Positions 1 through 8,726 of a stretch of 23,863 nucleotides of DNA are shown here, in pieces. The stretch lies in assembly GCF_003334255.1 (NCBI RefSeq), contig NZ_QOWU01000065.1; one strand, written 5' to 3'. The stretch is from Escherichia coli (GTDB lineage: Bacteria; Pseudomonadota; Gammaproteobacteria; Enterobacterales; Enterobacteriaceae). The position numbers and the translations under genes are program-made. The number at the start of each line of letters is the position of its first letter. Within the stretch, counting starts at the first letter, position 1. The notes beneath the pieces are model-generated. The model ran no database searches and was not told where the DNA came from. It saw nothing but the letters and a program-made list of their open reading frames with translations.

Positions 1-89
1 CTCCGTCTAATTTAGAAGGAGCTCTAATTTAGTCTGCAAGGAGCAGGTGTTACAGACGGCATTGGCTTTACGCTTACAGTTATTACTGA

Positions 90-338
90 AACTACAACAA
101 CATTATCACTATCTTGTTGGGCATCAGCAAGCGAGGCAACAAGAAGATACGAACCTTGCTGGTTCAGTGCGCCAGAGTATTTATACAAAAACTGGAACAC
201 CAGTCAGGCAGGTTGGCCGACTGGGTCCGGGAGTTACTGTGCCGGAAAAGTAACTTTGTCGTGACTTGCGCTCTGGCAAACAAGCTGGCCAGAATAGCCT
301 GGGCACTAACAACACGGCAGCAAACTTACGAAGCATAG
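90..338 (+). pseudogene. IS110-family transposase, 3'-terminal remnant (last ~75 codons only)
   Basis: Translation ...LLGISKRGNKKIRTLLVQCARV...FVVTCALANKLARIAWALTTRQQTYEA matches the conserved C-terminal region of IS110-family transposases. The same frame has a stop at 87-89 and no other frame upstream looks transposase-like, so only the 3' end of the gene is present. Confidence 0.5.
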
Positions 339-595
339 TGAGAGTTATATCTGTTTAAACAATCACTCATCTGGTTTTGCGGATACTGATTATTGATGAT
401 ACGAACGGCCCACCGGCCTGTTGAGGAACCTGTGAAACGGAAAGGCTCATTGAAGCCGTATATTTTCTTGAGGTTCATCAGGCGCGGAACTCATCGAGGC
501 GCGGGAATAAAATCCCATTCAGACGCCGGATAGATTCAAGCAAGCCCACTTATCGTCAAAATCGGTGTTGCAAAAACGGGAGTGACCATAGAGTC

Positions 596-2585: not shown

Positions 2586-4022
2586 ATGTCTCAGAGAAGT
2601 AAGTACAATTCGGCCTATGTGTACGTCCTGTGTTGTATTGCGGCGCTGGCTGGATTGATGTTTGGTTATTCAACGGCGGTGATTACCGGGGTAGTATTGC
2701 CTTTACAGCAGTATTACCAACTGACGCCAACCGAGACCGGATGGGCCGTTTCCAGTATCGTGATTGGTTGTATCATCGGCGCGCTGGTCGGTGGAAAAAT
2801 TGCCGATAAACTGGGGCGTAAACCTGCGCTTCTGATCATTGCGATCATTTTTATCGCTTCTTCCTTAGGGGCGGCGATGAGTGAATCGTTCATGATCTTC
2901 TCCCTTTCCCGCATTGTGTGTGGTTTTGCGGTTGGGATGGCCGGAACGGCATCCACCATGTATATGTCTGAACTGGCGCCTGCTGAAATTCGCGGCAAAG
3001 CGCTGGGCATTTACAATATTTCCGTGGTATCTGGCCAGGTTATCGTGTTTATAGTCAACTATCTGATAGCAAAAGGAATGCCTGCTGATGTGTTGGTTTC
3101 CCAGGGCTGGAAGACTATGCTTTTTGCCCAAGTGGTACCCTCCATTGCGATGTTAGCGATTACGCTTTTCCTACCCGAATCACCGGCATGGTGCGCCCGT
3201 AACAACCGCAGCGAAGCCCGTTCGATAAAGGTGCTTACCCGGATCTACAGTGGATTAACGGCCACAGATGTGGCCGCTATTTTTGACAGCATGAAAGAAA
3301 CCGTACGTCCACAGGACAACGTCGCCGGGGGAGAACGCACCAACCTGAAAAGCTCGCCGGTGCTCCGCTATATTCTGTTGGTTGGATGCTGTATCGCCGT
3401 TTTGCAACAGTTCACAGGCGTTAACGTAATGAACTATTATGCGCCGCTGGTGTTGCAGAACAGCAGTACCGAAGTGGTTATGTTCCAGACCATTTTTATC
3501 GCGGTATGTAATGTGGTGGGCAGTTTTATCGGCATGATCCTGTTCGACCGCTATGGCCGTATACCGATTATGAAAATTGGTACCATCGGCTCAATTGTCG
3601 GCCTGTTGATCGCGTCATACGGTTTGTACACCCATGATACAGGCTACATTACCATCTTTGGCATCCTGTTTTTTATGCTGCTGTTTGCCGTCAGCTGGAG
3701 CGTTGGCGCATGGGTACTGATTTCTGAGGTTTTCCCTGAAAAGATAAAAGGTTTTGGGATGGGGCTGGCGGTGAGTCTGATGTGGATAGCCAACTTCCTC
3801 ATCTCACTGTTGTTCCCGGTCATAAATGATAACGCCTGGCTGCAGGAGACCTTCGGCGGCGCTTTCTCGATGTGGATTTTTGTCGTCTTTAATTTGGTCT
3901 GCTATATCTTTATTTCTCGTTATGTGCCGGAAACAAAAGGGGTGCCGCTAACAGAAATTGAACGGCTGGCCGAGAACAAGCTGCGTGAAATTCAGGGGAA
4001 ACGTCGCGATGTAATAGCCTGA
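2586..4022 (+). CDS. iolT2: MFS sugar-porter family transporter, myo-inositol:H+ symporter type (IolT-like), 478 aa
   Basis: ATG at 2586 preceded by aagggaggg; sugar-porter motifs (GLMFGY, PESPAW, PETKG); paralogous to the 682..2115 gene. Paralog number inferred from gene order. Confidence 0.8.
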   Translation: MSQRSKYNSAYVYVLCCIAALAGLMFGYSTAVITGVVLPLQQYYQLTPTETGWAVSSIVIGCIIGALVGGKIADKLGRKPALLIIAIIFIASSLGAAMSESFMIFSLSRIVCGFAVGMAGTASTMYMSELAPAEIRGKALGIYNISVVSGQVIVFIVNYLIAKGMPADVLVSQGWKTMLFAQVVPSIAMLAITLFLPESPAWCARNNRSEARSIKVLTRIYSGLTATDVAAIFDSMKETVRPQDNVAGGERTNLKSSPVLRYILLVGCCIAVLQQFTGVNVMNYYAPLVLQNSSTEVVMFQTIFIAVCNVVGSFIGMILFDRYGRIPIMKIGTIGSIVGLLIASYGLYTHDTGYITIFGILFFMLLFAVSWSVGAWVLISEVFPEKIKGFGMGLAVSLMWIANFLISLLFPVINDNAWLQETFGGAFSMWIFVVFNLVCYIFISRYVPETKGVPLTEIERLAENKLREIQGKRRDVIA

Positions 4023-4067: not shown

Positions 4068-4333
4068 GGTTACACAACCTTTACTCCCTCCAGCGAGTGC
4101 GCACAGGATATACCCTGTTGAAACCTCCCCAGTGTTTACCACCTCTATGTAACTAATTGATCCATAATAATATCGGCAAATAGGGTAAGTCTTCTTCTGC
4201 ATCATTATTTTATTGCGTATTCCTGGTGGGGGCCGTGCCGTAAATACGCTATATACAAAACAGGGAAATAATTTTAGAGAAGGTGGATAGCGATCTTATG
4301 AGCGTGTGTGGCGCAGAGTTGAATAATAAATAT

Positions 4334-4357
4334 CCTCCGGCATAGCCGGAGGTTTTT
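4334..4357. terminator. Canonical hairpin plus T-tract, possibly the pre-existing bidirectional terminator between the convergent iolT2 and iolB
   Basis: cctccggc-ata-gccggagg (8-bp perfect stem) followed by ttttt on the plus strand; an A/T-rich run also precedes it. It sits at the inferred right end of the IS200 copy. Confidence 0.5.
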
Positions 4358-4433
4358 CTGATGCGCCTGTAAGGCTCTCTTACCAGCCGCGTCCTAACAG
4401 GCGCATACGATCTGACATTTGCATCAAACTTCG

Positions 4434-4865
4434 TTACTTACGGCCCGTAAACGGGCTGCCCGTTTTATCCTCTTCAAGCTGGTGCTTTATGTATTCCCGT
4501 ATCTTCGCCGTGTTCTTACCCACCGTATCGACATAGTACCCTCTGCACCAGAACTCCCTGTTCCTGTATTTGAATTTTAGATCCCCAAACTGCTCGTAAA
4601 GCATCAGACTACTTTTACCCTTCAGATACCCCATGAAGCTCGACACACTCATCTTCGGCGGGATCTCCAGAAGCATGTGAATATGATCTGCACAACATTC
4701 CGCTTCCAGAATTCGTACGTTTTTCCATTCACACAATTTTCTTAATATGCTGCCTACTGCCCTACGCTTCTCTCCATAGAACGCTTGTCTTCGGTATTTG
4801 GGCGCGAAAACTATGTGATATTTACAGTTCCATCGGGTGTGCGCTAAGCTCTTTTCGTCCCCCAT
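4434..4865 (-). CDS. tnpA: IS200 transposase TnpA (HUH Y1 transposase), 143 aa as encoded here
   Basis: MGDEKSLAHTRWNCKYHIVFAPKYRRQ...ADHIHMLLEIPP...RGYYVDTVG, i.e. the HxH motif and catalytic Tyr region of IS200 TnpA. Start placed at the ATG at 4863-4865 (SD aaggggg); the ORF-track start at 4916 is a TTG in the 5' UTR. Confidence 0.9.
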   Translation of the reverse strand: MGDEKSLAHTRWNCKYHIVFAPKYRRQAFYGEKRRAVGSILRKLCEWKNVRILEAECCADHIHMLLEIPPKMSVSSFMGYLKGKSSLMLYEQFGDLKFKYRNREFWCRGYYVDTVGKNTAKIREYIKHQLEEDKTGSPFTGRK

Positions 4866-5007
4866 TGGGACCCCCTTTTGATTTCTTGTTGAACTTTTGC
4901 AGTTGCCAGACCGCAAGATGTTTTAACAAATCAAAAGGGGTTTTAATAACTGGCTTAAAGCTGAAAGCTTTCCGGCCCCCCCAGCCTAGCTGGGGGGGGG
5001 CATAGAC

Positions 5008-5036
5008 AAAAAAGCCAGCCGCAGAGGACGGCTGGC
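5008..5036 (-). terminator. Hairpin plus U-tract at the IS200 left end; also serves as terminator for iolB read-through
   Basis: On the minus strand gccagccg-tcctctg-cggctggc is followed by tttttt; it lies 22 bp downstream of the iolB stop at 5058-5060. Confidence 0.7.
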
Positions 5037-5057
5037 AAAGTACCACTCAACGAAGTG

Positions 5058-5867
5058 TTATCGCGGGTAGTCTGGTGAGTTAATCCACGCGTGGTTCTCT
5101 TCCCAGGTGAAACGCCATTTTCGTAGCGGGCCGGCCATCACGTTCAGATAGTAGTTATCGTAACCCGCGATGGTGGCAACCGGGTGGTAGCCTTTAGGTA
5201 CTTTCACTACATCCCGGTTATAGACCGCCATACATTCATCCAGGCTGCGATCGTCGGTGTAGACGCGCTGTAAGCAGAATCCCTGAGGTGGATTGAAACG
5301 GTGATAGTATGTCTCTTCCAGATAGGTCTCCTGGCCTTCAACTGCCGTATCGTGCTTGTGTGCGGGCCAGGAGCTGGTATCGCCTTCATTAGTGTACACT
5401 TCAACGACTAGCAGGCTGTCGGCGAGCTGGCTATCAGGAAGGATGTTATGCACCAGGCGCTGATTGCGCCCTTTTCCCCGATGCTCTACCCCGACCTCTT
5501 GTGGCGAGATCAGACGTACTGGAAGCTCTCCGAATCCCGGCGCGCTGCATACGGCCAGCTCAAGGTCGGTTTCGGCTGTCACTTTCGCCTCCGTATGATG
5601 GGGGAGGTAAACCGAATAAGCTGGAATGCGTTCAAACGGACTCATGCGCTGACCAATCCGATAGAAAAAACTGTCGGCGGCCTTAACGCTGGCCAGCCCG
5701 GCAACCAGCACCAGACAGCGTTCACGCTCATCGGACGGCAGGGTTATCGACTCTCCAGCCTTCAACTGCCAGACATCAAAACCGACATACTCCCAGCCTG
5801 CATTTTGAGGGGAAATGTGTTGGATATTTCCCGACTCAGAGGTACAGGTACTCAGCAAGTTGGCCAT
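5058..5867 (-). CDS. iolB: 5-deoxy-glucuronate isomerase IolB
   Basis: 269 aa; the C-terminal half (HRGKG...VHNILPDS...LLVVEVYT...HKHD...YLEETYYH...QRVYTDDRS...YYLNVMAGP) aligns with Bacillus IolB; SD aggag upstream; 24 bp after the iolA stop. Confidence 0.85.
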   Translation of the reverse strand: MANLLSTCTSESGNIQHISPQNAGWEYVGFDVWQLKAGESITLPSDERERCLVLVAGLASVKAADSFFYRIGQRMSPFERIPAYSVYLPHHTEAKVTAETDLELAVCSAPGFGELPVRLISPQEVGVEHRGKGRNQRLVHNILPDSQLADSLLVVEVYTNEGDTSSWPAHKHDTAVEGQETYLEETYYHRFNPPQGFCLQRVYTDDRSLDECMAVYNRDVVKVPKGYHPVATIAGYDNYYLNVMAGPLRKWRFTWEENHAWINSPDYPR

Positions 5868-5891
5868 AATCTTCTCCTTCCTGAAAGCGTA

Positions 5892-7397
5892 TTAACCGAG
5901 AGTTGGCATACTGAACTCCGATACGATCTGCTGTCCGTTCGGCCAACGCGAGGTAACGGTTTTCATCCGGGTATAGAAGCGCACGCCATCCGGCCCATGG
6001 ACGTTCAGGGCGCCAAACACCGAGCGCTTCCAGCCGCCAAAAGAGTGAAATGCCATCGGAACCGGAACTGGAATATTAATACCGACCATCCCGGCTTCAA
6101 CCGACTGGGCGAATTCGCGCGCATAGTGACCGTTGGTGGTGAAAATCACGCTGCCGTTGCCGAATTCATGGGAGTTTACCGTGCTAATGGCGGTGGCATA
6201 ATCCGGGACGCGCACAATTCCGAGAACCGGGCCAAAAATTTCTTCACGCCAGATGGTCATCTCAGGCGTGACGTTATCAAACAGAGTGCCGCCGACATAA
6301 AAGCCTTCAGGATATCCCGCCACGCTATAGTTGCGGCCATCCATGACCAGAGTTGCTCCCTCGCTAACCCCTTTGTCGATGTAACCCAACACTTTCTGTT
6401 GATGAGCACGTGAAACAACCGGGCCCATTTCATTTTCATCTTTGCCGCGCAGCTCTCCCGGGCCGATACGTAGCGCCGCAATCAGCGGTTTCAGGCGTTC
6501 GATCAGACGGTCCGCCGTTTCATCGCCCACCGCGACCACTACCGGCAGCGCCATACAGCGTTCGCCCGCGGAACCAAATGCTCCGCCCATAATGGCGTTG
6601 ACGGTGGCGTCCAGATCTGCATCCGGCATGACGATTGCGTGATTTTTGGCGGCCCCGAAGGCCTGTACGCGTTTGCCATGGGCGCTGGCGGTGGTATAGA
6701 TATGTTCCGCGACGGCGGAGGAACCGACAAAGCTGACGGCCTGTACGCGAGGGTCGCTGGTCAACAGGCTAGCCGCCTCATTGCCACAGTGAACAACGTT
6801 AAACACGCCGTCCGGCAGGCCAGCCTCCTGCAGAAGCTGCGCCATACGTAACGATGCGGACGGCACCAGTGCGGGCGGCTTCAGGACGAAGGTATTGCCG
6901 CAAGCCAGAGCAACCGGGAACATCCACATAGGCACCATTGCCGGGAAGTTAAACGGTGTGATGCCTGCCACAACCCCAAGCGGCTGCATTAATGAAAAGC
7001 TGTCAACGCCTGAGCCGACGTTAAAGGAGTACTCTCCTTTGCTGAGATGCGGGATCCCGCAGGCAAATTCGACAACCTCTATGCCGCGCGTCAGTTCGCC
7101 AAGCGCATCTGACCAGACCTTGCCATGCTCGCTGACGATCAGCGCCGCCAGTTCGTCCCGATGCTTTTCCAGTAATACTTTGAATTCAAAAAGGATACGT
7201 GCCCGGCGTAGCGGAGTCATTTTACTCCATGCCGGAAAAGCCTCATGTGCGCTTTGAATTGCCGCCAGCATCTCCTCTCGGGTGCTCTGGGTGACCTGAC
7301 GAATTACTTTACCGGTGGCCGGATTAGCCACCGGTAGCGTCTCGCCGCTGCTGCTCAGTGTCGTTTTACCATGAATAAAATTGCCGACTGTTTCCAT
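5892..7397 (-). CDS. iolA: Methylmalonate-semialdehyde dehydrogenase (CoA-acylating) IolA, aldehyde dehydrogenase family
   Basis: 501-aa ORF with aldehyde-dehydrogenase architecture; first gene of the iolA-iolB pair; SD aagagga upstream of the ATG. Confidence 0.85.
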   Translation of the reverse strand: METVGNFIHGKTTLSSSGETLPVANPATGKVIRQVTQSTREEMLAAIQSAHEAFPAWSKMTPLRRARILFEFKVLLEKHRDELAALIVSEHGKVWSDALGELTRGIEVVEFACGIPHLSKGEYSFNVGSGVDSFSLMQPLGVVAGITPFNFPAMVPMWMFPVALACGNTFVLKPPALVPSASLRMAQLLQEAGLPDGVFNVVHCGNEAASLLTSDPRVQAVSFVGSSAVAEHIYTTASAHGKRVQAFGAAKNHAIVMPDADLDATVNAIMGGAFGSAGERCMALPVVVAVGDETADRLIERLKPLIAALRIGPGELRGKDENEMGPVVSRAHQQKVLGYIDKGVSEGATLVMDGRNYSVAGYPEGFYVGGTLFDNVTPEMTIWREEIFGPVLGIVRVPDYATAISTVNSHEFGNGSVIFTTNGHYAREFAQSVEAGMVGINIPVPVPMAFHSFGGWKRSVFGALNVHGPDGVRFYTRMKTVTSRWPNGQQIVSEFSMPTLG

Positions 7398-7786
7398 CTC
7401 TTTTTTATCCTCTTAAACCGATGTTGACGACGTTCTGACTGAGCGGTCACAGGAAAGCCTGGTTATCTTCAGCCTAAAACGCATACCGTATTCAATGTAA
7501 ATTTTAGGATTAAAAATTTCAAATCTATTTTTATGAAATTTTATTTTGAAAATTTGACGACTGATTTTTATACGAGGGTATGTGCAGTAAGAAATCAAAA
7601 ATCCAATTAACTTATTGATTTTTATTGTTTTTATTTGGTGTGATATCAATGGTTGTTTGTTGTGATGAGGAAAGATTTGGAAAAAATTATGATCTATATA
7701 GCATTTTTGTTTCATTTGGTGTAGTATAAAAATTCAAATTTCAGGGGTGTTTCGGCACCACAGTTTCGGATATTGGAGGGTAAATC
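7398..7786. promoter_or_regulatory. AT-rich divergent promoter region between iolA and reiD
   Basis: About 390 bp of AT-rich non-coding DNA between divergent genes. Direct repeats atttggtgt(g/a)(a/g)tat at 7634-7647 and 7714-7727, and gtttcgg at 7749-7755 and 7763-7769 just upstream of the reiD SD (ggaggg, 7773-7778). Confidence 0.5.
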
Positions 7787-8656
7787 ATGCGCTTGTGCTT
7801 CTGTCCTTCAGAACGAGAGAATAAGCCCCAGTTGGCGTATGTGAGTCAGGTCAGTGAGAGCAATGGTCCGTATGTCCGGTTCATGCATATGCACCCACAG
7901 ACCGTTGAACTGATTCTTATCACCGAAGGAGACGGGGAGTATTTCATTGGCGATCGCATCTACCCGGTTCGTAAAGGCGACCTGGTCATTTATAACAGCC
8001 AGGTGGTGCATGATGAGTATCTGGAAAGCGGGCGGCCAATTGGCACTATTTGTTGTGGGATTAACAATATTTCGTGTCCGGGTCTACGTGAGAATGCGCT
8101 AATACCGGATGATATTGTGCCGGTTATTCCACTGTATCACCATTATGCGACGGTGGAAAAACTGATGAGCTCCGTGTTTACCGTTATTAATCAGCATGCG
8201 GTGGAAGGGCCAGCAATGGCGCAGCTATTGACCCAGGTAGTACTCAAATACATTGAGGGAAATGTCTTATTGCGCACAGGTAACGATGCCATACAGCGCC
8301 ATGAAAATTTACTTGATTCAATAAAATCCTATATTGATCGCAATTTCTATGAGCCAATTCGGCTGGATACACTGGCGACGAAATTTAATGTCAGTCCTTA
8401 TTATGTTTCCCATGAATTTAAACGCCGCTATGGTTATTCACCGATGGATTACCTGATAAAACGTAGGCTGGGGGAGGCTCAATCGTTACTAACCACGGAT
8501 AAAGGCGGGCGCGAAAAGATCACCTCTATTGCCTATCGTGTTGGCTTTAGCAACCTTAGTCATTTTCAGAATTACTTCAAAAATAAAGTGGGGAAAACAC
8601 CCGGTCAATATCGCAAGGACTATCGTAAAGCTAATTATTTATTATTTGAATATTAA
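7787..8656 (+). CDS. reiD: AraC/XylS-family transcriptional activator with N-terminal cupin-like domain (ReiD-like)
   Basis: 289 aa; C-terminal tandem helix-turn-helix typical of AraC regulators (...SPYYVSHEFKRRYGYSPMDYLIKRRLGEAQ...IAYRVGFSNLSHFQNYFK...). Position between iolA and iolE matches the described island layout. Confidence 0.75.
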   Translation: MRLCFCPSERENKPQLAYVSQVSESNGPYVRFMHMHPQTVELILITEGDGEYFIGDRIYPVRKGDLVIYNSQVVHDEYLESGRPIGTICCGINNISCPGLRENALIPDDIVPVIPLYHHYATVEKLMSSVFTVINQHAVEGPAMAQLLTQVVLKYIEGNVLLRTGNDAIQRHENLLDSIKSYIDRNFYEPIRLDTLATKFNVSPYYVSHEFKRRYGYSPMDYLIKRRLGEAQSLLTTDKGGREKITSIAYRVGFSNLSHFQNYFKNKVGKTPGQYRKDYRKANYLLFEY

Positions 8657-8683: not shown

Positions 8684-8715
8684 AATGGTCGCAATACTGC
8701 GGCCATTTTTTATTG
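8684..8715 (+). terminator. Rho-independent terminator of reiD
   Basis: aatggtcgca-atac-tgcggccatt (10-bp stem with one G-U pair) followed by tttttatt; 28 bp after the reiD stop. Confidence 0.7.
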
Positions 8716-8726
8716 TTATTCCTAAA

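What the first reader, a model, noticed from the sequence alone, without database searches (positions are those of the whole stretch)
4359..5057. IS200 copy abutting the 3' end of iolB, with a tnpA that appears to lack 9 codons near its C-terminus
The element is a recognisable IS200, co-oriented with iolB, with its left-end terminator hairpin 22 bp past the iolB stop. The encoded TnpA ends ...HQLEEDKTGSPFTGRK. The canonical IS200 TnpA as I recall it is 152 aa and ends ...EEDKMGEQLSIPYPGSPFTGRK, so this copy seems to carry a 27-bp in-frame deletion, leaving 143 aa. The inferred element length of about 690 bp, against about 707 bp for IS200, fits that. The HxH and Tyr motifs are upstream and intact.
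Basis: partly seen in the sequence, partly recalled or inferred. Interest (0 to 1): 0.4.

Follow-up and report, generated by a model that had tools for sequence, protein, structure and literature searches.

The report
Decayed IS200 copy behind iolB
This is a real but ordinary relic of the insertion sequence IS200, lodged just after the iolB terminator in a Salmonella-derived inositol island of E. coli; its transposase gene has lost 27 bases, removing a conserved C-terminal motif, and its left end is also damaged.

Summary
The 27-bp in-frame deletion is real. tnpA (4434-4865, minus strand) encodes 143 aa, against 152 aa in Salmonella IS200 and E. coli IS200C. The HUH histidines (H61, H63) and Tyr125 are intact.

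Two details of the finding are wrong:
- **Boundaries.** Comparison with empty sites puts the element at 4325-5007 (683 bp; 711 bp for canonical copies with the same boundaries), not 4359-5057.
- **Hairpin.** The hairpin 22 bp past the iolB stop (5014-5036, plus T6) is iolB's own terminator. It is present in Salmonella loci without the IS. IS200 inserted 3' of its T-run without target duplication, as did all 24 other copies examined.

The deletion lies beyond the Pfam Y1_Tnp domain. It removes M135-P144, including QLSIP, a motif conserved in distant IS200-group transposases that matches the beta-clamp-binding consensus QLSLF.

The left end is also aberrant. The conserved GAAAA and TT flanking the hairpin are replaced by C and G, and the poly-C run varies from C9 to C12 between strains.

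The allele occurs only at this one locus: 7 of 5426 complete E. coli genomes, and all 26 contigs read. The most likely reading is a stranded, decaying IS200 copy. Interest is low.

The parts
4325..5007 (-). Whole IS200 element, 683 bp (GTCTATG...GGATATTTATT)
   Evidence: Boundaries come from comparison with three empty sites and a filled site, and from the point where homology among 16 copies at different loci breaks. Canonical copies measure 711 bp by the same rule.
4434..4865 (-). tnpA, 143 aa plus stop. Y1 HUH transposase with H61/H63 (4677-4685) and Y125 (4491-4493)
   Evidence: Pfam Y1_Tnp covers residues 11-129. PDB homologues align over residues 4-132. RefSeq annotates it as WP_000502122.1.
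4462..4463 (-). Junction of the 27-bp deletion. Canonical nt 547-573 are missing, so codons M135-P144 become T135
4449..4465 (.). 17-nt perfect palindrome AAACGGGC-N-GCCCGTTT created by the deletion
   Evidence: I6. The canonical sequence has only CGGGC-A-GCCCG.
4976..4998 (-). IS200 left-end hairpin (classical nts 12-34), altered. The stem is now C7AGC/GCTG7; the conserved flanking GAAAA and TT are replaced by C and G
   Evidence: I4. The hairpin still folds, -13 against -12 kcal/mol as ssDNA. GAAAA...TTCC is conserved in the 24 other copies examined, from Salmonella, E. coli IS200C, the Tatumella type and a copy whose TnpA is 67% identical to IS200's.
4992..5000 (-). Poly-C run (C9 on the minus strand) in the left end. 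Its length is polymorphic between strains
   Evidence: C9, C10, C11 and C12 occur among E. coli copies of this same insertion. One strain (L011) has a deletion of about 46 bp that removes the hairpin.
4872..4940 (-). [quoted passage not shown] Identical to the Salmonella IS200 reference copy
   Evidence: I1; Rfam structure. No window-specific differences between alignment positions 34 and 379. Function taken from PMC4513863.
4334..4357 (-). Right-end hairpin CCTCCGGC-TAT-GCCGGAGG (4334-4352), preceded on the minus strand by AAAAA (4353-4357)
   Evidence: I3. Conserved in all copies.
4325..4333 (-). Right terminal ATATTTATT, ending in the putative cleavage pentanucleotide TTATT
   Evidence: Homology among copies ends here.
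5008..5036 (-). iolB's own intrinsic terminator: hairpin 5014-5036 plus T6 at 5008-5013. Host DNA, and the insertion target
   Evidence: Present in the empty Salmonella sites L030, L033 and L037 as GGCTGGC-TTTTTT-ATTCAAC. Terminator scan; fold -11.2 kcal/mol, z -5.2.
5058..5867 (-). iolB (5-deoxy-glucuronate isomerase), upstream neighbour
   Evidence: The protein is identical to that of Salmonella enterica.
2586..4022 (+). iolT2, convergent with iolB. The IS lies in the convergent intergenic gap and interrupts no gene or promoter

Best explanation
This is a stranded, decaying copy of Salmonella-type IS200.

**Insertion (shown).** The element inserted by the family's single-strand mechanism, without target duplication, immediately 3' of the T-run of iolB's own intrinsic terminator. 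It lies in the gap between the convergent genes iolB and iolT2.

**Host region (shown).** The 2.9-kb iolA-iolB stretch next to it is over 99% identical to Salmonella enterica, and the locus is present in only 7 of 5426 complete E. coli genomes.

**Lesions acquired since insertion (shown).**
1. A 27-bp in-frame deletion just beyond the catalytic domain. It removes M135-P144, including the conserved QLSIP motif.
2. Replacement of the conserved GAAAA and TT that flank the left-end hairpin by a length-unstable poly-C/G run.
3. Two substitutions next to the catalytic tyrosine (Q123R, D124E).

**Predicted consequences (inferred).**
- The catalytic core (HUH, Tyr125) should still fold.
- QLSIP is the putative beta-sliding-clamp-binding motif, so the protein has probably lost its tether to the replication fork.
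- By analogy with IS608, where a guide sequence 5' of the hairpin foot pairs with the cleavage site, the A-run lost from the left end would be the guide for the TTTTT cleavage site. If so, the element can no longer be cut at its left end.

**Mobility.** The allele has never been seen at a second locus. The element is therefore most likely immobile. The only part unchanged from Salmonella IS200 is the 5'UTR/art200 RNA region.

**Origin of the deletion (inferred).** It probably arose by slipped mispairing between the imperfect direct repeats TGGGTGAGC and CGGG-CAGC, which lie 27 bp apart.
For: - **Deletion and intact motifs:**
- **Terminator is host sequence; precise insertion without duplication:** the empty site is GGCTGGC-T6-ATTCAAC, the filled site is T6|IS|ATTCAAC.
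- **Same targeting elsewhere:** all 24 other IS200-group insertions examined sit right after a different host hairpin plus T-run. The flanking pentamers are TTTTT 18, TTGTT 3, TTATT 2 and GCTTT 1.
- **Deletion lies outside the core:** Pfam Y1_Tnp ends at residue 129, and solved homologues align only to residues 131-132.
- **The tail is nevertheless conserved.** The 150 listed representatives (clusters at 50% identity) include 66 with an aligned tail. Among these, position 138 is Q in 50, position 139 is L/M/I in 60, position 140 is S/T in 55, position 141 is L/I/M/V/F in 62, P147 is kept in 55 and F148 in 57. Several read QLSLF.
- **Clamp binding:** C-terminal peptides from two E. coli IS200 transposase variants bind the beta clamp in vitro, and Q1/L4-to-Ala mutants do not. 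The consensus is Q-L-S-L-F/L (PMC3971601).
- **Guide sequences:** in IS608 they lie 5' of the hairpin foot and are essential for the transpososome (PMC3201880).
- **Left end:** GAAAA...TTCC is conserved even where the stem itself has covaried (L048). In this copy it is replaced, the poly-C run ranges C9-C12, and one strain has lost the hairpin.
- **Single locus:** all 26 contigs read carry the allele between iolB and iolT2. No second copy of the allele exists in 5426 complete E. coli genomes. The closest complete genome has no other megablast-detectable IS200.
- **Salmonella origin of the region:** 18-27 differences in 2887 nt, and an identical IolB protein.
Against: - No transposition, cleavage or clamp-binding assay exists for this allele. 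Loss of function is inferred.
- In IS608, mutating or deleting a C-terminal clamp-like motif changed neither DnaN interaction nor excision (PMC5027513).
- A Salmonella lineage with a 14-bp frameshifting deletion that also destroys QLSIP sits at five or more different loci. Tail-less elements can therefore spread, at least with help in trans.
- The exact peptides tested in PMC3971601 could not be read, so equating them with QLSIP is my inference.
- The IS200 guide sequence has not been mapped experimentally. The two inner As of GAAAA may simply pair with TT in the stem.
- IS200 transposes very rarely anyway (PMC4513863), so presence at a single locus is weak evidence of immobility.
Confidence: 0.72

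Rival explanations
1. The allele is still an active transposon. The 9-residue loss lies in a flexible tail outside the catalytic fold, and TnpA-143 works normally.
For: - The Pfam domain and solved homologues end before the deletion, and HUH and Y125 are intact.
- Deleting the IS608 tail motif had no effect on excision (PMC5027513).
- The Salmonella 146-aa tail-less lineage occurs at many loci, including an independent insertion one T away from a 152-aa copy in the same terminator (L016 against L028).
Against: - The deleted motif is strongly conserved across distant homologues.
- The left end has lost the conserved GAAAA/TT and is length-unstable.
- The allele is found at one locus only.
Confidence: 0.13
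2. The copy is retained for its RNAs rather than for transposition. The 5'UTR-derived sRNA and art200 are the functional products, and the transposase is free to decay.
For: - The 5'UTR/art200 region is identical to the Salmonella IS200 reference copy, while both flanking parts of the element carry lesions. Rfam gives a full-length 146-bit match.
- In Salmonella the processed 5'UTR regulates host genes (PMC5435999; bioRxiv 10.1101/2024.06.26.600842).
Against: - About 110 bp without change in an element that differs from its closest relatives by only four point substitutions is expected by chance.
- One E. coli strain carries an extra A inside the stem-loop, and another has lost the left-end hairpin (L011).
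- There are no expression data for E. coli.
Confidence: 0.08
3. The 27-bp gap arose in two steps. First came the 14-bp frameshifting deletion seen in the Salmonella 146-aa lineage. A second adjacent 13-bp deletion then restored the frame and the terminal GSPFTGRK.
For: - Both deletions end at exactly the same right-hand nucleotide (...|CGGGCAGCC), and 14 + 13 = 27.
- The window element belongs to the same IS200 sub-lineage as the 146-aa copies (shared bases at alignment positions 308, 371, 667). It shares A at position 677 with three of them.
Against: - A full-length 152-aa copy of the same sub-lineage exists (L032), so a direct 27-bp loss is equally possible.
- The support is a single shared site.
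- An imperfect direct repeat (TGGGTGAGC / CGGGCAGC) explains a one-step 27-bp slippage.
- No intermediate was found at the iolB site.
Confidence: 0.2
4. There is no real deletion: either an assembly error or the reader misremembered the canonical sequence.
For: None found.
Against: - The same allele is in 7 independent complete genomes and on 451 contigs.
Confidence: 0.01

Closest known systems
IS200 of Salmonella enterica (RefSeq 'IS200F family'; 152-aa TnpA)
   Same: - About 98.5-99% DNA identity outside the lesions.
- Same 5'UTR stem-loop, right-end hairpin and terminal TTATT.
- Same insertion behaviour: 3' of a host terminator's T-run, with no duplication.
   Different: - 27 bp shorter in tnpA, so it lacks M135-P144.
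- Left-end GGAAAA...TT is replaced by G-C4...GG.
- Substitutions Q123R and D124E.
- Four private point substitutions in all.
IS200C of E. coli
   Same: Same architecture and the same 152-aa reading frame. TnpA is 93% identical.
   Different: - About 91% DNA identity.
- The linker between the left terminus and the hairpin differs (GTGCACA against GTCTATG).
- The window copy is of the Salmonella type, not the resident E. coli type.
Salmonella 146-aa IS200 variant (14-bp deletion, frameshifted tail ...MGEQFGQPVYGP)
   Same: - The deletion ends at the identical right-hand nucleotide.
- It also destroys the QLSIP motif.
- It belongs to the same IS200 sub-lineage.
   Different: - It is out of frame, so it loses the PFTG block as well.
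- Its left end is canonical.
- It is present at five or more distinct loci, against one for the window allele.
IS608 (Helicobacter pylori), the mechanistic model of the IS200/IS605 family
   Same: - Y1 HUH transposase (phmmer E 4e-20 to chains 2a6m/2vhg).
- Subterminal hairpins, insertion 3' of a short specific sequence, no duplication.
- Short sequence 5' of each hairpin foot complementary to the cleavage site. This is shown for IS608 (PMC3201880) and inferred here from AAAA(A) against TTTTT/TTATT.
   Different: - IS608 also carries tnpB and targets TTAC.
- Its C-terminal clamp-like motif was dispensable in assays (PMC5027513).
- The IS200 ends double as transcription terminators (PMC4513863).

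Membership tests
IS200/IS605 family (IS200 group) | Encodes a Y1 HUH transposase (Pfam Y1_Tnp) with HUH histidines and a catalytic tyrosine | tested here: met
   Pfam PF01797 covers residues 11-129, E 1.2e-38. H61, H63 and Y125 are present. Y125F is catalytically dead in IS200 (PMC4513863).
IS200/IS605 family (IS200 group) | Subterminal hairpins at both ends, no terminal inverted repeats | tested here: met
   Left-end hairpin at 4976-4998 and right-end hairpin at 4334-4352. The termini GTCTATG... and ...TTTATT are not inverted repeats.
IS200/IS605 family (IS200 group) | Insertion 3' of a specific tetra- or pentanucleotide without target-site duplication | tested here: met
   Empty site T6-ATTCAAC against filled site T6|IS|ATTCAAC. 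The flanking pentamer is TTTTT in 19 of 25 sites counting this one.
IS200/IS605 family (IS200 group) | Guide sequence 5' of each hairpin foot, complementary to the cleavage site | tested here: inconclusive
   At the right end, AAAAA precedes the hairpin and TTATT ends the element, which fits. At the left end, the GAAAA conserved in all 24 other copies is replaced by C. The IS200 guide has not been mapped experimentally, so this is an analogy to IS608 (PMC3201880).
IS200 proper | 5'UTR with the Shine-Dalgarno-sequestering stem-loop and art200 region (Rfam RF01405) | tested here: met
   146.2 bits against a gathering score of 56, full length 1-124.
IS200 proper, intact reference copy | 152-aa TnpA with the conserved C-terminal [DE]Q[LM][ST][LIMV] and DPF[T]G blocks | tested here: not met
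   143 aa. The first block is deleted and the second is retained.
IS200 proper, intact reference copy | Capacity to transpose | not testable with these tools
   Only indirect evidence: the allele is seen at one locus.

The most novel reading that the evidence does not exclude
The stretch just before CGGGCAGCCCGTTTACGGGCC in IS200 tnpA may be a structure-driven deletion hot spot. Two lineages, the E. coli 143-aa allele and the widespread Salmonella 146-aa allele, independently lost DNA ending at the very same nucleotide. Both losses remove the putative beta-clamp-binding motif QLSIP. If so, loss of clamp binding is a recurrent, possibly favoured, route by which IS200 is attenuated. The 152-, 146- and 143-aa proteins would then form a natural allelic series (both blocks, neither block, PFTG block only) for testing what the conserved tail of Y1 transposases does.
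Probability: 0.2. Interest if true: 0.4.

Novelty: already known. Interest (0 to 1): 0.15.

Why it matters
In itself this matters little. It is one degenerate copy of a well-known insertion sequence, already in RefSeq as WP_000502122.1. It interrupts no gene.

Three modest points of value:
- It corrects where IS200 ends and shows that the upstream hairpin is the target, not part of the element. That distinction matters for annotation and for studies that count terminators upstream of insertion sequences.
- It marks the inositol island of a few E. coli lineages as a recent import from Salmonella.
- The in-frame loss of exactly the conserved QLS[IL] block, with the PFTG block kept, gives a ready-made natural allele for testing whether clamp binding matters for IS200 transposition.

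Tried and rejected
- **Empty site in E. coli.** A megablast of a synthetic empty-site sequence against 5426 complete E. coli genomes found only 7 genomes, all carrying the IS. Empty sites were obtained instead from contigs that encode the identical IolB protein.
- **Empty site in species-representative genomes.** An exact 41-nt scan found nothing. I did not use the second scan.
- **Exact peptides of Gomez et al. 2014.** Figure 3A is an image and no supplementary text is held, so the identification with QLSIP remains my inference.
- **Left-end change and art200.** I considered that the altered left end might disable the art200 terminator. I rejected this because a 90-nt art200 starting at tnpA codon 3 should end near nt 63 of IS200, by my calculation from PMC4513863. 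That is upstream of the altered hairpin.
- **Simple microhomology at the deletion junction.** I rejected this because no exact repeat flanks the junction. Only the imperfect repeat TGGGTGAGC/CGGGCAGC does, and the deletion also lengthens a palindrome.
- **One-step or two-step origin.** SNP sharing gives only one informative site, so the question is unresolved.
- **Same event as L032?** I considered whether the E. coli insertion and the Salmonella full-length insertion at the same terminator (L032) are one event. The junctions differ by one T on each side, and both reconstitute the empty site exactly, so independent insertion is more parsimonious. This is not proven.

Full report
**Where the window comes from**

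The window is E. coli chromosome. The IS200 region (4330-5060) is 100% identical to strain N2512 and at least 99.5% identical to six other complete genomes. Annotation of N2512 over the same 23.9 kb, read in window order, gives:
- a cut IS110 gene
- iolT1 and iolT2
- the tnpA in question
- iolB, iolA and reiD
- a second, frameshifted IS200/IS605 tnpA
- iolE, iolG1, srfJ and iolI1
- an MFS transporter and an IS91 pseudogene
- the iolC-type kinase/aldolase, iolD, iolG2 and another MFS transporter

This is the Salmonella-type myo-inositol island. Only 7 of 5426 complete E. coli genomes carry the iolB-iolT2 junction, and all seven have the IS. The window's IolB protein is identical to a very common Salmonella enterica protein. 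The 2.9 kb spanning iolA-iolB differs from ten contigs that encode the identical IolB protein by only 18-27 nucleotides. I take these contigs to be Salmonella because that exact protein is named as Salmonella enterica. The distance is no more than the contigs differ among themselves.

tnpA lies at 4434-4865 on the minus strand, co-oriented with iolB (5058-5867). It encodes 143 aa ending ...HQLEEDKTGSPFTGRK. Every reference aligned shows a single 27-nt gap:
- two E. coli IS200C copies
- a 152-aa copy in the same iolB terminator (L032)

The sequence TGGGTGAGCAATTATCGATCCCGTATC is missing between window 4462 and 4463. M135-P144 is replaced by Thr. H61, H63 and Y125 are present, and Y125 is the catalytic residue of IS200 TnpA (PMC4513863). 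Identity as IS200 is secure: Rfam STnc490 at 146 bits and Pfam Y1_Tnp at E 1.2e-38. The allele is not an artefact, since the exact protein is on 451 contigs.

**Boundaries and the hairpin**

Contigs that encode the identical IolB mostly have an empty site reading ...GCCAGCCGTCCTCTGCGGCTGGC-TTTTTT-ATTCAACTC... (L030, L033, L037). The window reads ...GGCTGGC-TTTTTT | GTCTATG...GGATATTTATT | ATTCAACTC. Three conclusions follow:
- The element is 4325-5007, 683 bp.
- It inserted without any target duplication.
- The hairpin at 5014-5036 with its T6 run is iolB's own intrinsic terminator, not part of IS200.

The true left-end hairpin is at 4976-4998. This corresponds to the bidirectional terminator at nts 12-34 of the 707-bp element described in PMC4513863. 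By my boundaries canonical copies measure 711 bp. The difference from 707 is a matter of where the T-rich termini are drawn.

**Targeting pattern**

I examined 24 further insertions:
- Salmonella 152-aa type: 9 copies
- Salmonella 146-aa type: 5 copies
- E. coli IS200C: 2 copies
- the type found in Tatumella ptyseos and in metagenome assemblies: 7 copies
- a metagenomic copy (L048) whose TnpA is 67% identical to IS200's: 1 copy

Every one begins immediately after a different host hairpin followed by a T-run. The last five flanking bases are TTTTT in 18, TTGTT in 3, TTATT in 2 and GCTTT in 1.

Two pairs of copies sit in the same terminator one T apart: window against L032, and L016 against L028. 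Each reconstitutes the empty site exactly. This is best read as independent hits on a hot spot. A recent preprint reports terminator-like sequences enriched just upstream of IS200/IS605 elements (bioRxiv 10.1101/2025.07.22.666184). The data here show that, for IS200, that upstream terminator is the host target.

**What the deletion removes**

The Pfam domain ends at residue 129. Solved homologues (Sulfolobus, IS608, ISDra2) align only to residues 131-132. The catalytic fold is therefore untouched.

The tail is not a free spacer, however. A search of 1.84 billion cluster representatives listed 150 proteins, of which 91 align a Tyr with Tyr125 and 66 of these also have the tail aligned. These 66 show two conserved blocks:
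- **[DE]-Q-[LM]-[ST]-[LIMV].** Q138 in 50 of 66; position 139 is L/M/I in 60; position 140 is S/T in 55; position 141 is hydrophobic in 62.
- **D-P-F-T-G.** P147 in 55; F148 in 57.

A further group of homologues ends right after GEQLTMGNF. These keep the first block and lack the second. Several homologues read QLSLF, the beta-clamp-binding consensus.

Gomez et al. showed that 20-aa C-terminal peptides from two E. coli IS200 transposase variants bind the E. coli beta clamp at the canonical pocket. Q1/L4-to-Ala mutants do not bind (PMC3971601). I could not read the peptide sequences. QLSIP (138-142) is the only sequence in the last 30 residues that fits Q-x-x-[LI], so the identification is my inference.

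The 27-bp deletion removes exactly this block and keeps PFTG. The functional cost is uncertain. For IS608, mutating or deleting a C-terminal clamp-like motif changed neither the DnaN two-hybrid signal nor excision (PMC5027513).

In all 24 other copies the left-end hairpin is flanked by GAAAA on the 5' side and TTCC on the 3' side. This holds even in L048, where the stem itself has changed with compensating substitutions (CCTCCCGC/GCGGGAGG). In the window, GGAAAACCCCC...GGGGGTT has become GCCCCCCCCC...GGGGGGG.

The hairpin still folds (-13 against -12 kcal/mol), but the A-run is gone. In IS608 the cleavage site is recognised by a guide sequence immediately 5' of the hairpin foot, and both are essential for the transpososome (PMC3201880). 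In IS200 both hairpins are preceded by AAAA(A), and the cleavage sites are TTTTT (left flank) and TTATT (right terminus). By that rule the window copy has lost its left guide and should not be cleavable at TTTTT|G. This is analogy, not a test.

The same tract is unstable. Copies of this very insertion in other E. coli strains have C9, C10, C11 or C12, and one strain has lost about 46 bp including the hairpin.

**Other differences and what is unchanged**

Apart from these lesions the element has four private substitutions:
- Q123R and D124E, next to Tyr125
- one synonymous change
- one change in the right-end non-coding region

The 5'UTR stem-loop and art200 region are identical to the Salmonella reference copy.

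**Mobility**

All 26 contigs read that encode the exact 143-aa protein carry it between iolB and iolT2. No other copy of the allele exists in the complete E. coli genomes; a copy lacking the iolB flank would have ranked above the 87-92% IS200C hits. N2512 has no other megablast-detectable IS200.

A Salmonella lineage provides a contrast. Its 14-bp deletion gives a 146-aa protein with the frameshifted tail MGEQFGQPVYGP, and it occurs at five or more loci. Loss of the tail therefore does not by itself prevent spread, though full-length copies could help in trans.

**Origin of the deletion**

The 14-bp and 27-bp deletions end at the same nucleotide, just before CGGGCAGCCCGTTTACGGGCC. Three observations bear on the mechanism:
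- The 27-bp loss lies between imperfect direct repeats: TGGGTGAGC at its start and CGGG-CAGC just after it. This fits slipped mispairing.
- The loss extends a palindrome to AAACGGGC-N-GCCCGTTT (4449-4465).
- A two-step origin (14 bp, then a frame-restoring 13 bp) is possible. The window element belongs to the same sub-lineage as the 146-aa copies and shares one extra site with three of them. A full-length member of that sub-lineage also exists, so this cannot be decided.

**Verdict**

The hairpin attribution and the coordinates are wrong. The element is best described as a stranded Salmonella-type IS200 with three lesions:
- a tail deletion that removes the putative clamp-binding motif
- an aberrant, unstable left end
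- two substitutions beside the catalytic tyrosine

It sits harmlessly between convergent genes in a horizontally acquired island. It is a known kind of element in an ordinary state of decay, so interest is low. Its one useful aspect is as a natural allele for testing the conserved C-terminal tail of IS200-group transposases.

Noticed in passing
window ~8707-9332 (+); tnpA pseudogene 8834-9255; hairpins 8727-8745 and 9304-9322; host hairpin 8685-8706 plus T-run: A second, different IS200-group element with a frameshifted tnpA. It sits right after the reiD terminator hairpin and T-run (TTTTTTATT|GTTATTCC), co-oriented with reiD, the same targeting pattern as the iolB copy. Apparently full-length relatives about 96.6% identical occur on E. 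coli chromosomes and many plasmids.
   Followed up: partly
window 5008-7900 (iolB-iolA) and the whole island: The E. coli myo-inositol island is nearly identical to that of Salmonella enterica: 18-27 differences in 2887 nt, an identical IolB protein, and srfJ and reiD included. It is present in only 7 of 5426 complete E. coli genomes, which suggests recent horizontal transfer.
   Followed up: partly
window 4992-5000; loci L005-L013: The poly-C run in the IS200 left end varies from C9 to C12 between E. coli strains carrying this same insertion. Strain L011 has a deletion of about 46 bp between GCC repeats that removes the hairpin. Homopolymer sequencing error cannot be excluded for the length differences.
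   Followed up: partly
loci L014, L016, L017, L019, L020 (Salmonella): A very common Salmonella IS200 allele (146 aa, listed in more than 6700 blocks of the collection) has a 14-bp frameshifting deletion. Its right boundary is the same nucleotide as that of the 27-bp deletion here. This points to a possible structure-linked deletion hot spot.
   Followed up: partly
window 5007/5008 against L032; L016 against L028: In two cases IS200 copies of different sub-lineages occupy the same host terminator one T apart, and each reconstitutes the empty site exactly. This implies repeated independent insertion into the same T-run.
   Followed up: partly
window 4875-4998 (-): The Rfam STnc490 model matches the tnpA-sense strand. 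PMC4513863 describes art200 (formerly STnc490) as antisense to the tnpA 5'UTR. The family name and the strand of the model seem not to correspond.
   Followed up: no
window 1-353 (+) and ~15123-16310 (-): There is a cut IS110-family ('RNA-guided') transposase gene at the window start and an IS91-family pseudogene with an internal stop inside the island. The island therefore carries at least four IS remnants.
   Followed up: no
window 4449-4465: The deletion junction lies inside a 17-nt perfect palindrome (AAACGGGC-N-GCCCGTTT) that does not exist in full-length IS200.
   Followed up: partly
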